Source: Escherichia phage muut
Sequence record: NC_052657.1
Length of the DNA stretch: 64,000 bases
Direction: 5' to 3' (one strand)
The notes under the pieces were generated by a model that was not told the origin of the DNA, did no database searches, and worked only from the letters and a program-made list of their open reading frames with translations. The translations under genes and the position numbers were made by a program. Of the stretch, positions 1 to 12,397 are shown piece after piece. Position 1 is the stretch's first letter. Every line of letters starts with the position of its first letter.

Positions 1-1109
1 AACATTTTTACTCTCTTGCATGATAATCTCCTCTCATCGTTAGTCATCTTTCATGGCAATCATCAATCACCAACATCATACGATCAATCTTAGGGAATTA
101 CAATCGAATTATCATAGGGGATTCCTATCAATTATTCTATATATACCTATTATTTTTAACACACCCCTTTGTACATAATATAGACAAATAAATATCTATG
201 CCACAAAAATTTTCTGGTATACCCGATTTATTTCGACACACCCCCTTTTCATAAGCGTAAAGTCAATAATATCAATAACTTGCCGCAAAATACTGCTCGC
301 TTGCGAGAGGTGCTTAACGCGATTTTCAGCGCCCCGCGATTTTTCCCGACCGTCCCCCTCAAATATCAATGAGAATAATTATCATTTGCATTATCATTCA
401 ATGACTTATAAGACTTTTGATTATTTTCTGAGCAAGAAAGGTACTACTCACAACAAAACAGATAAATTCTAAGTAAATCAATGGCTTGGCAAGTCTAAAC
501 ATCTATATACACCTTGCCAAATGAAATGATCTGGCGTGAAATAGTGCTACCCGTGGAAGATAGCTGATAATGATTATCATTTGCATATTTTCTATACTAT
601 AAAACGCACTAAAAATCAAGATAATTCTGATTTATTGCGCTTTTAAGAAAGTAGGCTCAACAAATAGGCTATAACTATGCTCAACAAATAACAATAATAG
701 TATGAAAAATCATTTATTCAGATATAAATAATTTTGCGCAATAGTAGTAATATTTTTCTTGACAAGAAAGATTTCTTTGTGTTCACATAGCGCCCCCTGG
801 AAGGTGGCGCATTATGATCATCAATGTCATTATTCACCATGTTTATTATTGCATAGCTTATTATTTAGCTTATATTATAGCCAATGTTCTAAACACTAGC
901 TAATAATAACGCACCGCAACAATGTAAGGGATACAATATACCATGTATATTGTTGCGCTTGCAATTGTTGCAAGCTACATAAGCACAAATAATAACTATC
1001 GGTGATGGTTATTATGTGGGGTGTGTAGTTGCGTTATTATTAGCCGCCTATGTGTCCGGCATAGGCTGCTAATGATACGCTTGCGAATTATATTTCTTGT
1101 TATAGTTAT

Positions 1110-1173
1110 TGTATGAAATGATTACCACATGAAATGGTTACTGTATGCAATGATTACTGTATGAAATGATTAG
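1110..1173. repeat. Four tandem ~16-bp direct repeats, (t)gtatgaaatgattac(t)
   Basis: Read directly: tgtatgaaatgattacc / catgaaatggttactg / tatgcaatgattactg / tatgaaatgattag in a non-coding AT-rich region. Confidence 0.6.
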
Positions 1174-1195
1174 TTAGGTAATAAATAGGAAGGTA

Positions 1196-1455
1196 AAGGT
1201 TAGATCATAAATAGATAGGATATGAATTATTTAGTAATGTTACTAACGATTTAATAGTTACTTTGTGCAATAATTCGATAGATTATAGTTATAGTTTTAA
1301 AGGTTAGATAGATTATATTTAGCTTAGTAATGATTTATATTAGTTATTGTTGTTTAATATAAGGTTATCAATGAGATAGTAACAGTAAGTTATAAATAAA
1401 GGTTAGATAATTAGTTTTAATTTAGTTAGATAACTTATTATTTTATAGGTTAGAT
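1196..1455. repeat. Iteron-like dispersed repeat AGGTTAGAT, 4 copies (about 1196, 1301, 1400, 1447)
   Basis: Read directly; spacing about 100, 100 and 47 bp in an AT-rich ORF-free region. Confidence 0.5.
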
Positions 1456-1744
1456 GGTCATAAGTTAAGAATGATTATCATTATTGCATTATGCAGCTTA
1501 TTGCATAAATAATCAGCTATAAATAAGAATGATTATCATTTAAGAGGAAAGACAAGAAAAAGGCTGTTTTTGCCAGATAGTTGCATGAAGAAATTAAAAA
1601 TAAGCGGTCTAAAACACGTTGTAAGCGCCTTATGATCTTCATGGTATGGTTGTTCATCTGCTCCTTGATTAGCTCGATACCGCGATCTATTCACTTTTTT
1701 CGGTGAACGTTTTTGATAGGTAAAAGCTATCATCTTTATTTAGG

Positions 1745-1772
1745 TAAAAAGAAAGGGCGCAATAAGCGCCCT
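1745..1772 (-). terminator. Rho-independent terminator, hairpin GGGCGC-aataa-GCGCCC
   Basis: Perfect 6-bp GC stem followed on the minus strand by TTTCTTTTT, just downstream of the stop of the minus-strand gene ending at 1788. Same stem recurs at 2908 and 7116. Confidence 0.6.
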
Positions 1773-1787
1773 TGTTTGAAATGTTAT

Positions 1788-2171
1788 TTACTGATAAGCA
1801 GGATCGTTTGTTATATCAATCCAATGAGCTAAATTAATTTTATTTTTTGCTTTCATTTTCTCGATCAAACGTTCGGCTAATGTCTCGGAACGAATATAAA
1901 CATAATCGCTAAAATCTTGCCCCGTTTCTTCGTCGATCATTTCCCTATATTCAACCTTGCCGATAAACGCATGATTCAGCGCATAAGTTTTACCCGTGTA
2001 CCAGTTGTGTAAATGAATCTCGCATTTATAATCGTCGCTATAACCTTCGGTTGTTCTAACTTCAACCAAGTCACCTTTAAACACTGATAAGCACCACATA
2101 GGATCATGATCTACAGCGCCGTTAAAATCTTTACCGTTTACAGTCGCTGCCAGGTTGATGATATTGCTCAT
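1788..2171 (-). CDS. Hypothetical early protein (127 aa)
   Basis: ORF with GAGGAA ribosome-binding site upstream of the ATG; terminator immediately downstream. Confidence 0.55.
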   Translation of the reverse strand: MSNIINLAATVNGKDFNGAVDHDPMWCLSVFKGDLVEVRTTEGYSDDYKCEIHLHNWYTGKTYALNHAFIGKVEYREMIDEETGQDFSDYVYIRSETLAERLIEKMKAKNKINLAHWIDITNDPAYQ

Positions 2172-10766: not shown

Positions 10767-11033
10767 ATGACAAATACCCCTTTACATCTCATGCACTCAT
10801 TGGGCTGGCAAGGCGGCACGGTGCACCAGGTAGCAAGCGCAACGGGCTTAAAGGTTGAAACCGTTCTCAACCTGGGCGATCATAAGGTGGAAGAAATAGA
10901 TCATTTTGATACGTTCGCAAATGGTTATCTATGGGCTTGCAGTGGCGGCGGGGAAAGCAAGATCCCGCCAGGGGCGCGGGGCGACATGTATTTTTGGTTA
11001 GGTGTCCTATCCTGGCAAGAAAACAAAAAATAA
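10767..11033 (+). CDS. Hypothetical protein (88 aa), the only plus-strand ORF in the early block
   Basis: ORF with ribosome-binding site AAAGAAAGGG. Confidence 0.35.
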   Translation: MTNTPLHLMHSLGWQGGTVHQVASATGLKVETVLNLGDHKVEEIDHFDTFANGYLWACSGGGESKIPPGARGDMYFWLGVLSWQENKK

Positions 11034-11035
11034 TC

Positions 11036-11064
11036 TTGACAAGCCCAGGGATCGGGCTTATACT
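11036..11064 (+). promoter_or_regulatory. Strong sigma70-type promoter (TTGACA-N17-TATACT) driving a non-coding region
   Basis: Read directly; the downstream ~100 nt carry GC-rich inverted repeats and no ORF. Confidence 0.45.
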
Positions 11065-11296
11065 GTTTTACATACAGAAGAGGAAGCGCCACCCCCACGG
11101 CGTAAAGGCGGGGCTAACATACCAGGGCACTACTGGTTGGAAGGTTGATCGCCGGTAGCTCGTCTAAAATAAATTTGTAAAGAAATGTAAAGATAAAAAT
11201 AATCGCTTGCTTTTGTTGTTGGTTATGCTATTCTTATTGTATGGCGAGGGGATACGGGAGCGCGAGACAAACACCACCCCTGCGCGTTATTCTCTA

Positions 11297-11408
11297 AATG
11301 AGAAAATTCTTATTTGGTAATGATTCTCATTCTCTTACTGAGAATGATTATCACTTACATAATTAAATGATAATGATTCTCATTTACAAATGAGAATGAT
11401 TATCATCC
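11297..11408. repeat. Cluster of five Fur-box-like palindromic motifs (AATGAT[TA]NTCAT)
   Basis: Read directly: taatgattctcattctc, gagaatgattatcacttac, gataatgattctcatttac, gagaatgattatcatccg and one degenerate copy. Confidence 0.5.
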
Positions 11409-11430
11409 GCACACCCATAAAAACACGAAA

Positions 11431-11628
11431 TTGAACTTTTCATTTTTGATTTTTCTACGGAAAAAGGCAAAAAAACTTTAAATAAACTGGGGAATTTTTA
11501 AAAAATTGAAGTTTTCATTTTCAAAATCTGGACAGAAATACATACAAAAACTTTAAATAATTTTGACCAAACTTGAACTTTTCATTTTCAAAATTTGTAG
11601 CCAAAAATCTGTAAAAACTTTAAATAAT
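11431..11628. repeat. Three direct repeats of about 56 bp (TTGAAsTTTTCATTTT...AAAAACTTTAAATAA)
   Basis: Units at about 11431-11486, 11506-11561 and 11573-11628, read directly; ORF-free and AT-rich. Confidence 0.55.
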
Positions 11629-11845
11629 TTTATCCTTTTTATAAAAATGATTTTACTGTTCTGTTATAAATAGTAGTTAAGAGATAATGTGTCTTTTAAA
11701 AGCCAGATAGCATAGTCCAACAAACAAATTAAATAATTTATTAACAGAGTACAGAATAATATTTACTCTGGATATATTATTCAGAGGGTGGATTTCCGTA
11801 CATGAAACCCACACCCCTTTTATAAAAATAAAAATTTTCAAAATA

Positions 11846-12397
11846 TCAGGAAATATCAGATTGTGTTTTTAGATAAACAGCAAGGTCTGTATGCCATTTT
11901 CCTAAAAGATTTTGTCCTTTCCAACAATCCTTGTTTTCAACATTACGATCCCACATCCCCATTTTGATACCATAAATAGAATCATAAGGGCTTGCCTCTA
12001 CGAACTCCTTATCTGCGTAAGCAATAAGTTTATTTTTGAGATCTTCATTTTGTGTGTATTTAAGATACAAACCACGTTCGACAATCTTCTCCCGTAAAGA
12101 AGTCCAGGTATCTTCATCATAATCCTTAACTAATCTACCTAGTCGCTTATAATATGCTTGTTCTTTTTCTCCTGTATATCTTAGATCTCCGGTTAAAATA
12201 GAAGATGCAATATTGTAATCATAAAACAAACATGCTTTTCTCCACATCATATATTGTTCCACACAAGTAAATTCAACATAACTTGTAATAGAATTATTAT
12301 ACTTGGGAGCTAAAGGTTCAATAAAAGATGATAGATACCAGTTGCTAAATTCATCTTTTGCCGAAAAGAAGAACACATACTTATCAGTAATCCGCAT
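11846..12397 (-). CDS. NADAR/YbiA-like (DUF1768) domain protein
   Basis: Motifs FFFSAKDEFSNWYLSSF, ASPYDSIYGIKMG and GQNLLGKWHTDL resemble the YbiA/NADAR family pattern (FF..SNF.., SP.D..WG.G, G.N.LG). Confidence 0.5.
   Translation of the reverse strand: MRITDKYVFFFSAKDEFSNWYLSSFIEPLAPKYNNSITSYVEFTCVEQYMMWRKACLFYDYNIASSILTGDLRYTGEKEQAYYKRLGRLVKDYDEDTWTSLREKIVERGLYLKYTQNEDLKNKLIAYADKEFVEASPYDSIYGIKMGMWDRNVENKDCWKGQNLLGKWHTDLAVYLKTQSDIS

What the first reader, a model, noticed from the sequence alone, without database searches (positions are those of the whole stretch)
1110..1455. Iteron-like repeats in a 1.5-kb ORF-free AT-rich region: candidate origin or terminal region
Positions 1-1530 lack any ORF but contain four tandem 16-bp repeats (1110-1173), four dispersed AGGTTAGAT copies (1196-1455), short GC-rich palindromes (about 950-975 and 1043-1063) and a twice-repeated CACACCCCTTTT motif (about 161 and 240, also at about 11808). 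This organisation is typical of replication origins, packaging sites or terminal repeats.
Basis: seen in the sequence. Interest (0 to 1): 0.5.

Follow-up and report, generated by a model that had tools for sequence, protein, structure and literature searches.

The report
Phage genome-end junction with variable repeats
The ORF-free stretch is where the two physical ends of a phi92-like coliphage genome meet; its real terminal repeat lies at 315-657, and the flagged "iterons" are lineage-specific, copy-number-variable repeats in an AT-rich spacer next to it, so the finding is largely ordinary.

Summary
The repeats are real: a 16-bp array at 1106-1172 and four exact AGGTTAGAT copies at 1197-1455. 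The window is a phi92-like myovirus (Justusliebigvirus).

The 343-bp direct terminal repeat (DTR) annotated in phi92 maps exactly to window 315-657. The ORF-free stretch (23-1787) is therefore the junction of the two genome ends. "Terminal region" is right, but about 450 bp away from the flagged coordinates.

The flagged repeats lie in the right subterminal arm.
- The 16-bp array has 1-4 copies among congeners and is absent from sister genera.
- The AGGTTAGAT copies are no better conserved than their flanks.
- Each genus has its own enriched short motifs here. What is shared is composition: AT-rich and C-poor on the + strand.
- There are no DnaA boxes, no GC-skew inflection and no adjacent initiator gene, so an origin is not supported.

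The conserved, sequence-specific elements lie elsewhere in the region:
- DTR boundaries sharing GCT|YAAC.
- A ~170-nt structured element (895-1071, + strand) with 12 compensatory pairs and no Rfam family.
- Near-consensus host Fur boxes in the DTR and at 1466-1545. One shares 16 contiguous bases with the E. coli entC Fur operator.

Verdict: ordinary as an iteron or origin candidate. The neighbouring elements are moderately interesting.

The parts
1..22 (-). 5' end of the first left-end gene (phi92 gp001 side); it runs off the window
   Evidence: ATG at 22-20 preceded by GAGGAG (sequence). The start and RBS block is conserved across genera. Minus-strand genes continue upstream in relatives.
23..314 (.). 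Left-end leader between the DTR and the first gene; holds the two CACACCCC(T)TT copies (160, 237)
   Evidence: Conserved blocks at about 107-165 and 236-247. Within-genus diversity 0.024.
315..657 (.). Direct terminal repeat (343 bp), present as a single collapsed copy in this assembly
   Evidence: phi92 DTR-L equals DTR-R, and both align ungapped to 315-657. Only one copy in the window. BME3 has a 342-bp DTR. Schickermooser has an exact 329-bp DTR with the same boundaries.
310..321 (.). Left DTR boundary, GGTGCT|TAACGCG (physical end between 314 and 315)
   Evidence: phi92 and Schickermooser record ends. TGCTTAACGCGA is invariant in 5 lineages.
651..664 (.). Right DTR boundary, GTAGGCT|CAACAAA (physical end between 657 and 658)
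   Evidence: phi92 DTR end and VEcB record end. Schickermooser has TTGCT|CAAC. GCTCAACA is conserved in 5 lineages.
370..388 (-). Fur-box-like palindrome inside the DTR (15/19 to the E. coli consensus)
   Evidence: conserved across genera.
566..584 (-). Fur-box-like palindrome inside the DTR (17/19 to consensus; 16 contiguous bases identical to entC Fur box 2)
658..898 (.). Most variable part of the right subterminal arm
   Evidence: Within-genus diversity 0.077 against 0.106 at third codon positions of the gp248 homologue.
895..1071 (+). Conserved structured element: a 14-15-bp closing stem (899-913 with 1030-1044), inner hairpins and a 3' hairpin (1046-1063). It contains both 'GC-rich palindromes' of the finding.
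   Evidence: Fold z-score -7.7 on + and -5.6 on -. 51 pairs, 12 with compensatory changes, 98% of cells paired; shuffle and slide controls are far lower. Covariance model scores 174 bits on + against 27 on -. No Rfam family.
1106..1172 (.). 16-bp tandem array (unit TGTATGAAATGATTAC, 4.2 copies): a variable-number tandem repeat
   Evidence: Copy number is 4, 4, 3, 3, 2, 2, 2, 1, 1, 1, 1 in 11 congeners. Record length differences come in multiples of 16. Absent from other genera.
1176..1465 (.). AT-rich, C-depleted spacer with internally degenerate repeats. It holds the four AGGTTAGAT copies (1197, 1301, 1400, 1447).
1466..1545 (.). Conserved palindromic block: two Fur-box-like palindromes (1470-1482, 1528-1540) flanking TATGCA-N6-TGCATA
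   Evidence: Only 1 of 13 columns is variable in each box.
1753..1773 (-). Intrinsic terminator after the last right-end gene
   Evidence: GGGCGC...GCGCCC plus a T-run is conserved in 5 lineages. Annotated as a terminator in PATM and Schickermooser.
1788..2171 (-). Homologue of phi92 gp248 (Gp30.8-like), the last gene before the right end

Best explanation
Shown by homology: the ORF-free stretch 23-1787 is the junction of the two physical ends of a linear phi92-like (Justusliebigvirus) genome, assembled through one collapsed copy of its 343-bp DTR (315-657). The ends are cut at two sites that share GCT|YAAC. To the left (23-314) lies the leader of the first left-end gene. To the right (658-1787) lies the non-coding arm between the last right-end gene, with its terminator, and the right DTR copy.

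Shown by comparison: the flagged repeats sit in that right arm. The 16-bp array is a slippage-type variable-number repeat (1-4 copies) within an insertion specific to this genus. The AGGTTAGAT copies are decayed 20-30-bp duplications. Across genera the spacer keeps its place, a length of 240-420 bp and its composition (22-30% GC, C-poor on the + strand), but not its repeats.

Inferred: the flagged stretch works through composition rather than through specific sites. Read in the direction of the upstream operon (minus strand), it gives an untranslated, G-poor, C>G transcript, followed by strong hairpins. This is the anatomy of a Rho-dependent stop. Such a stop would back up the intrinsic terminator and keep read-through transcription out of the packaging-proximal elements and the DTR. 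The sequence-specific work in the region is done by its neighbours: the DTR cut sites, the structured element at 895-1071, and the Fur-box-like operators.
For: Identity and ends
- 95.7% identity to vB_EcoM_ZYD; 209 related records.
- phi92 DTR annotation and exact mapping.
- Record ends of VEcB, PHB05, W22, PD114 and phi92 fall at 657/658 or 315.
- Exact 329-bp DTR in Schickermooser with the same boundary motifs.
- Published DTRs of 342 bp and 328 bp.

Variable-number repeat
-.

Lineage specificity
- The cross-genus alignment has a gap over about 1110-1270 in four other lineages.
- Each lineage has its own enriched k-mers.
- 6 of 36 motif columns are variable against 31 of 254 in the rest of the spacer.

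Composition
-.
- The minus-strand transcript has 12-17 C against 2-4 G per 78 nt over 1478-1167.
- A conserved intrinsic terminator lies upstream.
- The downstream structure folds on the minus strand too (-64.5 kcal/mol, z -5.6).

Partial constraint
- Within-genus diversity 0.046 against 0.106 at third codon positions.

Precedent
- In T7 and T3, packaging recognition lies near the termini. [quoted passage not shown]
Against: - The functional role of the spacer is inferred from composition only. No transcript, Rho or packaging data exist for this phage group in what I could search.
- C content of the putative Rho loading (rut) RNA is only 14-20%. It is G-poor rather than C-rich.
- Diversity below the synonymous proxy could reflect a sequence-specific function that I did not recognise.
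- Lineage-specific repeats are also what is expected of sites co-evolving with a lineage-specific DNA-binding protein, such as a small terminase or an initiator.
- The DTR is placed by homology, not from reads of this isolate.
- G-U evidence puts the neighbouring structured element on the + strand, not the strand of the proposed read-through transcript.
Confidence: 0.6

Rival explanations
1. Packaging or terminus-processing signal. The 16-bp units and GGTTAGAT-type repeats are binding sites for the small terminase subunit or another lineage-specific DNA-binding protein. That protein marks the right end, where packaging of DTR genomes of the T7 type starts.
For: - The repeats lie 450-800 bp from the right DTR.
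- Each genus has its own over-represented short motif in the homologous spacer, as expected for co-evolving protein-site pairs.
- Diversity is below the synonymous proxy.
- In T7 and T3, packaging specificity maps near the termini and to the right side of the junction.
Against: - Four of eleven congeners have a single 16-bp unit.
- The motif copies are not better conserved than their flanks.
- There is no regular spacing (104, 99 and 47 bp) and no helical phasing.
- The truly conserved candidates for recognition lie elsewhere: the DTR boundaries and 895-1109.
Confidence: 0.2
2. Replication origin. The tandem 16-mers are iterons for a phage initiator, and 1176-1465 is the DNA unwinding element.
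For: - Direct repeats sit next to the most AT-rich 290 bp of the window.
- The region is non-coding.
Against: - Copy number is not conserved (1-4), and the array is absent from sister genera that keep the rest of the region.
- Units are head-to-tail at 16 bp, not helically phased.
- There are no DnaA boxes.
- No initiator gene is adjacent; the neighbours are small hypothetical genes.
- Cumulative GC skew of a complete congener turns only where gene orientation switches, not here.
- A more origin-like layout exists at 11319-11640.
Confidence: 0.1
3. Neutral filler. The spacer is tolerated junk between functional elements, and its repeats are pure by-products of slippage with no role.
For: - The array is a variable-number repeat.
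- Motifs are lineage-specific.
- The motif copies carry no extra conservation.
- There is an insertion or deletion of about 200 bp between genera.
Against: - A spacer of 237-416 bp with the same unusual composition is kept in all five lineages, although sequence identity is only about 62%.
- Within-genus diversity is less than half the third-codon-position value.
Confidence: 0.15

Closest known systems
Terminal region of Escherichia phage phi92 (FR775895.2), 343-bp direct terminal repeats
   Same: The window 315-657 aligns ungapped to the annotated DTR. The layout is the same: last gene gp248, about 1.1 kb of non-coding DNA, then DTR-R; and DTR-L, about 350 bp, then gp001.
   Different: phi92 has 2 units of the 16-bp repeat where this phage has 4. 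The DTR here is seen once because the assembly runs through the junction.
T7/T3 concatemer junction (short terminal repeat with packaging and pause signals on its right side)
   Same: A short DTR of a few hundred bp sits in a non-coding junction. Non-coding elements are concentrated on the right-end side. Packaging recognition lies near the termini (PMC3276506). From my own knowledge, T7's repeat is also flanked by arrays of short repeats (Dunn and Studier 1983).
   Different: There is no phage RNA polymerase promoter or class II pause signal here. The repeats lie 450 bp from the DTR rather than abutting it. No experimental packaging data exist.
Iteron origins (lambda ori, plasmid oriV)
   Same: Direct repeats lie next to an AT-rich stretch.
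   Different: Copy number is variable, including a single copy. Period is 16 bp, head to tail. There are no DnaA boxes and no adjacent initiator gene, and the array is absent in sister genera.
[quoted passage not shown]
   Same: Window 566-584 read on the minus strand (GCAAATGATAATCATTATC) matches 17 of 19 consensus positions. It shares AAATGATAATCATTAT with entC Fur box 2. In 5406 of 5426 E. coli genomes the query has a match; the match examined lies in the fepB-entC intergenic region next to entC.
   Different: These boxes are not the flagged repeats. The 16-bp units carry only an AATGATTA half-site and fall below the 14/19 cut-off (about 9 of 19 by eye). There is no extended homology to the entC promoter. 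Binding is untested.
Variable-number tandem repeats (slippage minisatellites)
   Same: A perfectly phased 16-bp unit, with copy-number differences of whole units among near-identical genomes.
   Different: Nothing notable; this is the simplest description of the array.

Membership tests
Short direct terminal repeat (DTR) genome ends | The same sequence is present at both physical ends of the virion DNA | tested here: met
   Met by homology only. phi92 DTR-L equals DTR-R (343 bp) and maps to 315-657. Schickermooser carries an exact 329-bp repeat at both record ends with the same boundaries.
Short direct terminal repeat (DTR) genome ends | Read-start pile-ups and doubled coverage over the repeat in this isolate | not testable with these tools
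   No reads are available. The window holds a single collapsed copy.
Iteron-type replication origin | Several initiator-binding direct repeats whose number and spacing are conserved among relatives | tested here: not met
   1-4 copies in 11 congeners. Absent in four other lineages.
Iteron-type replication origin | Adjacent AT-rich unwinding element | tested here: met
   1176-1465 has 21.7% GC, the lowest in 64 kb.
Iteron-type replication origin | Host-factor sites (DnaA boxes) and/or an adjacent or enclosing initiator gene | tested here: not met
   No DnaA box, even with 1 mismatch. Flanking genes are small hypothetical proteins in annotated relatives.
Iteron-type replication origin | Skew or marker-frequency signature of initiation | tested here: inconclusive
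   Cumulative GC skew of phage inny turns only at gene-orientation switches (about 4, 40, 83 and 121 kb), not at 137-139 kb. In phages, skew mostly follows transcription. Marker frequency could not be tested.
Variable-number tandem repeat | Copy-number polymorphism in whole units among close relatives | tested here: met
Fur box (applies to 370-388, 566-584, 1466-1545; not to the flagged repeats) | Close match to the 19-bp consensus GATAATGAT(A/T)ATCATTATC and similarity to a validated operator | tested here: met
   15-17 of 19 matches. 16 contiguous bases identical to entC Fur box 2. All but five of the >=15/19 matches in a 147-kb congener, including every site scoring 16-17, fall in 3 non-coding clusters.
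Fur box (applies to 370-388, 566-584, 1466-1545; not to the flagged repeats) | Fe-Fur binding and iron-dependent regulation | not testable with these tools
   Needs gel shift, footprinting or ChIP, and infection of fur mutants or iron-starved cells.
Rho-dependent terminator (rut region plus pause) | Untranslated, unstructured, C>G RNA of at least about 80 nt, followed by pause sites | tested here: inconclusive
   The minus-strand RNA over 1478-1167 has C 12-17 against G 2-4 per 78 nt. Hairpins follow. Absolute C content is low, and there is no functional test.
Any Rfam RNA family (for 895-1071) | Score at or above a family's gathering threshold | tested here: not met
   No match at gathering thresholds in 64 kb. 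Only chance-level hits at E up to 5 in 1-1800.

The most novel reading that the evidence does not exclude
The junction region of phi92-like virulent phages carries two features I found described neither in Rfam nor in the papers I could search.

(1) Near-consensus host Fur operators: two inside the terminal repeat, two at 1466-1545 and four or five at 11316-11410. These would tie early transcription to host iron status, or titrate Fur.

(2) A conserved structured RNA of about 170 nt (895-1071), or possibly single-stranded DNA. It lies on the strand opposite to all neighbouring genes, about 240-410 bp from the right DTR, and is flanked by GCTAAT(A/G)AT boxes. It could be a non-coding RNA or a packaging or processing signal.

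On this reading the flagged repeats are only the variable spacer between the structured element (895-1071) and the Fur-box block at 1466-1545.
Probability: 0.4. Interest if true: 0.65.

Novelty: new member of a known kind. Interest (0 to 1): 0.33.

Why it matters
For annotation, it fixes the physical ends of this genome at 314/315 and 657/658. It also explains why gene callers litter the region with spurious small ORFs. It warns against reading tandem repeats next to AT-rich DNA as iterons. If confirmed, the shared GCT|YAAC boundaries would give a simple marker for termini in Stephanstirmvirinae assemblies.

The neighbouring features could matter more. Fur operators in a virulent phage would make iron-dependent control of early infection directly testable, which bears on phage therapy in iron-limited sites such as urine and gut. 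The conserved structured element is a candidate packaging signal or non-coding RNA in a phage group widely used therapeutically.

Tried and rejected
- Sigma-70 promoter scan of 1-2300: 14 sites against 13.4 expected, so no enrichment. Inspection of the cross-genus alignment gave no consistently conserved -35/-10 pair for either strand around the Fur-like boxes, the structured element or the CACACCCC motifs.
- DnaA boxes: none. IHF-like consensus: two weak hits only.
- Intrinsic curvature: no AA/TT periodicity near 10-11 bp in the spacer of any lineage; all peaks fall below the shuffle levels.
- AGGTTAGAT as a conserved binding site: rejected. Copies are no more conserved than their flanks and are absent from other genera.
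- CACACCCCTTT as a significant repeat: not significant.
- Rfam and tRNA/tmRNA scans: nothing.
- Covariance model of the structured element against more distant gp248-encoding phages (L008-L011): no hits. The element seems confined to Stephanstirmvirinae-like phages.
- Extended homology between the DTR and the entC promoter (host capture): rejected. Flank similarity has P = 0.28.
- Coding potential of the small ORFs at 1517-1733 that some records annotate: the ATG of the 46-aa ORF is ACG in ZCKP1 (alignment), and the array indels come in steps of 16 bp, not 3. I treat them as non-coding.
- Similarity of the spacer to other parts of the window: only internal degenerate repeats.
- The phi92 genome paper (Schwarzer et al. 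2012) could not be retrieved.

Full report
**What the window is.** Bases 1-2400 are 93-96% identical to many Escherichia phages of the genus Justusliebigvirus (phi92-like myoviruses, Stephanstirmvirinae, about 147 kb). The best hit is vB_EcoM_ZYD at 95.7%. The window is in the reverse orientation of the phi92 record. On the minus strand, ORF 1788-2171 is the homologue of phi92 gp248, the last gene of that genome. Another minus-strand gene starts at 22 and runs off the window. The non-coding stretch is therefore 23-1787.

**Check of the observation.**
- Tandem Repeats Finder finds a 16-bp array at 1106-1172: 4.2 copies, 78% matches. Three units are near-identical and one is divergent.
- AGGTTAGAT occurs exactly at 1197, 1301, 1400 and 1447, and only once more in 64 kb. 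With one mismatch allowed it is not enriched window-wide. The signal is a local cluster.
- The copies sit within decayed direct repeats of 21-31 bp.
- The two 'GC-rich palindromes' exist and belong to a larger structure.
- CACACCCCTTT is present at 160, 237 and 11810 but is not significant.
- The stretch 1176-1465 has the lowest GC (21.7%) and the strongest GC skew (+0.65, C 3.8%) of the window.

**Where the genome ends are.**
- phi92 carries annotated left and right direct terminal repeats of 343 bp. They are identical to each other and align without gaps to window 315-657.
- Records of VEcB, PHB05, W22, PD114 and PD06 begin or end at 657/658. phi92 ends at 315.
- Published DTR lengths are 342 bp for BME3 and 328 bp for Schickermooser, a member of another genus. 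A recent paper states that Stephanstirmvirinae genomes end in DTRs.
- I checked Schickermooser directly. Its record has an exact 329-bp repeat at both ends.
- In window orientation its boundaries are AAGTGCT|TAACGCG and ACTTGCT|CAACATT. In phi92 and this window they are GGTGCT|TAACGCG and TAGGCT|CAACAAA. The two cut sites thus share GCT|YAAC. Both boundary blocks are among the most conserved in a five-lineage alignment.
- The window holds one DTR copy. The assembly runs through the junction of the two ends.
The flagged repeats, however, are 450-800 bp inside the right end and outside the repeat.

**The flagged repeats among relatives.**
- In eleven Justusliebigvirus genomes the 16-bp array has 4, 4, 3, 3, 2, 2, 2, 1, 1, 1 and 1 units. 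Lengths of the homologous stretch differ in steps of 16 bp.
- The whole non-coding region is collinear at 61-65% identity with Phapecoctavirus (ZCKP1), the phiWec181 type, phi1_175008 and KP2025. In that alignment the stretch of about 1110-1270 is an insertion of the Justusliebigvirus lineage. It holds the array and the first AGGTTAGAT.
- Of the four AGGTTAGAT copies, two are largely kept within the genus. The others read AGATTAGAT or AGTGAGAT in most congeners.
- 6 of 36 motif columns vary, against 31 of 254 in the rest of the spacer. The motif is under no special constraint.
- Each lineage has its own over-represented short words in the homologous spacer: AAGGTTAGA here, GTTATC and TTAGTT in Phapecoctavirus, and ATTGT in phi1_175008 and KP2025.
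- What is shared is the position, a length of 237-416 bp, low GC (22-30%) and a G>C skew of +0.23 to +0.55 on the + strand.
- Within-genus diversity is 0.046. That is below third codon positions of the neighbouring gene (0.106) but above the strongly conserved neighbours (0.009-0.018).

**Origin hypothesis.**
- There are no DnaA boxes and no helical phasing of A/T tracts.
- No initiator-like gene is adjacent in annotated relatives.
- Copy number is not conserved.
- I assembled the full genome of the congener inny from three fetches. Its cumulative GC skew turns only where gene orientation switches (about 4, 40, 83 and 121 kb). It runs straight through the terminal region at 137-139 kb.
- Skew in phages mostly tracks transcription, so this is weak negative evidence. 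Nothing positive supports an origin here.

**What else is in the region.**

(a) A structured element at 895-1071.
- The + strand folds to -81.6 kcal/mol (z -7.7). The minus strand folds to -64.5 kcal/mol (z -5.6).
- An alignment of 14 sequences from five lineages gives a consensus of 51 pairs. Twelve pairs show compensatory double changes and 98% of cells are paired. Shuffles give 6.9 +/- 1.2 such pairs and slid controls give 0-4.
- Examples: the inner closing stem is AACGCA/TGCGTT here, AAGCCA/TGGCTT in Phapecoctavirus, ACCGCA/TGCGGT in phi1_175008 and AACACA/TGTGTT in KP2025. The 3' hairpin changes GCCTATG/CATAGGC to CGCTACG/CGTAGCG.
- Every one-sided change keeps a G-U pair on the + strand and none gives A-C.
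- A covariance model scores 174 bits on + against 27 on -.
- This points to a function of the + strand as a single strand, most simply an RNA made against the direction of all neighbouring genes.
- There is no Rfam family. I found no convincing conserved promoter or terminator for it, so RNA versus single-stranded DNA stays open.

(b) Fur-box-like palindromes.
- AATGATTATCATT with up to 2 mismatches occurs 29 times against 5.7 expected. It clusters at 370-388 and 566-584 (inside the DTR), at 1466-1545 and at 11316-11410.
- In the complete inny genome, the sites scoring 16-17 of 19 against GATAATGATAATCATTATC, and all but five of those at 15 or more, fall in the three homologous non-coding places.
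- The boxes are kept in all lineages although the flanks have diverged.
- A search of 5,426 E. coli genomes with window 558-592 finds a match in 5,406 of them. In the representative rows listed it aligns the same 26 query bases at 92.3% identity. The one match I opened lies in the fepB-entC intergenic region, about 30 bp from entC.
- The phage box shares AAATGATAATCATTAT with the validated entC Fur box 2 (PMC5020551).
- There is no wider homology to that promoter.
- Fur binding is therefore plausible but untested.
- The 16-bp units of the flagged array carry only the half-site AATGATTA. They do not reach the 14/19 cut-off used in the scans; by eye the best alignment matches about 9 of 19.

**How the flagged stretch most likely works.**
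- Shown: it is a lineage-variable, slippage-prone, AT-rich and C-depleted spacer in the right subterminal arm. It lies between a conserved palindromic block (1466-1545) and the structured element.
- Inferred: its conserved property is composition.
- The upstream operon is transcribed on the minus strand and ends with a conserved intrinsic terminator (1753-1773). Any read-through RNA is untranslated and, over 1478-1167, has 12-17 C against 2-4 G per 78 nt. It then meets strong hairpins. That is the anatomy of a Rho-dependent stop placed before the packaging-proximal elements and the DTR.
- In T7 and T3, events at the right side of the concatemer junction, including polymerase pausing, start maturation (PMC3276506). 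Control of transcription at this spot therefore has a precedent.
- I give the whole explanation 0.6. Identity of the region and the 'not iterons' verdict are high. The Rho or insulator role is about 0.3.
- Rivals: a lineage-specific protein-binding array for packaging (0.2), an origin (0.1) and plain filler (0.15).

**Novelty and interest.** DTRs of phi92-like phages are known and annotated. The flagged repeats are an ordinary variable-number repeat plus decayed duplications. As an iteron or origin candidate the finding is weak. The shared cut-site motif, the conserved structured element and the Fur operators of a virulent phage are not described in Rfam or in the papers I could search. They deserve follow-up and raise the interest of the locus, though not of the flagged repeats.

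Noticed in passing
window 895-1071 (+): Conserved structured element of about 170 nt: a closing stem, inner hairpins and a 3' hairpin. It has 12 compensatory pairs across five phage lineages and G-U pairs only on the + strand. It is flanked by GCTAAT(A/G)AT boxes and has no Rfam family. RNA versus single-stranded DNA is unresolved, and no clear promoter was found.
   Followed up: yes
window 370-388, 566-584, 1467-1485, 1524-1542, 11316-11410: Near-consensus E. coli Fur boxes (15-17 of 19). The one at 566-584 shares 16 contiguous bases with entC Fur box 2. In a complete congener, the sites scoring 16-17 of 19 and most of those at 15 or more occur in these three non-coding clusters. This suggests iron/Fur control, or Fur titration, by a virulent phage.
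   Followed up: yes
window 310-321 and 651-664: Both DTR boundaries share GCT|YAAC (GTGCT|TAACGCG and AGGCT|CAACAAA). The same holds in Schickermooser, which belongs to another genus. This is a candidate terminase cut-site motif, in direct rather than inverted orientation.
   Followed up: yes
window 10950-11870: A second large non-coding region. It holds four or five Fur-like palindromes at 23-29-bp spacing (11316-11410), next to a very AT-rich stretch with a 67-bp x 1.9 tandem repeat (11502-11631). It also has a near-consensus + strand promoter (TTGACA-17-TATACT, 11036-11064) followed by GC-rich hairpins. This looks more origin-like (lambda-ori-like layout) or early-promoter-like than the flagged locus.
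   Followed up: partly
window 1466-1545: The two Fur-like boxes flank an inverted repeat, TATGCA-N6-TGCATA, kept in all five lineages (TATGCA-N5-9-TGCATA). This may be an operator for another, possibly phage-encoded, regulator.
   Followed up: partly
window 1066-1109: The short stretch between the 3' hairpin and the 16-bp array is the most conserved part of the non-coding region within the genus (diversity 0.009). It contains a perfect TATAAT on the minus strand (1092-1087) with only a weak -35.
   Followed up: partly
L004 (BME3, PP239276.1, record end) against window 1061/243: The BME3 record joins the equivalent of window 1061, in the loop of the 3' hairpin, to window 243. It thereby holds three copies of the DTR sequence. 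This is probably an assembly or rearrangement artefact of the deposited record.
   Followed up: partly
hits H11, H12, H14, H15 (MG065639, MG065656, MG065645, MG065689): Records named 'Campylobacter phage', with Campylobacter jejuni given as host, are about 94% identical to this coliphage region. This suggests mislabelled hosts or contaminating coliphages in that collection.
   Followed up: no
window about 16000 and about 55000: Cumulative GC skew has its minimum and maximum where gene orientation switches (minus to plus, then plus to minus). In the congener inny the global minimum is at about 121 kb, some 5 kb from the second Fur-box cluster.
   Followed up: partly
window 1581-1706 (+): A 41-codon ORF (TTG start) with a hydrophobic core lies on the + strand in the non-coding arm. 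ZCKP1 has a different short hydrophobic ORF at the same place behind an AGGAGG. It may be chance.
   Followed up: no
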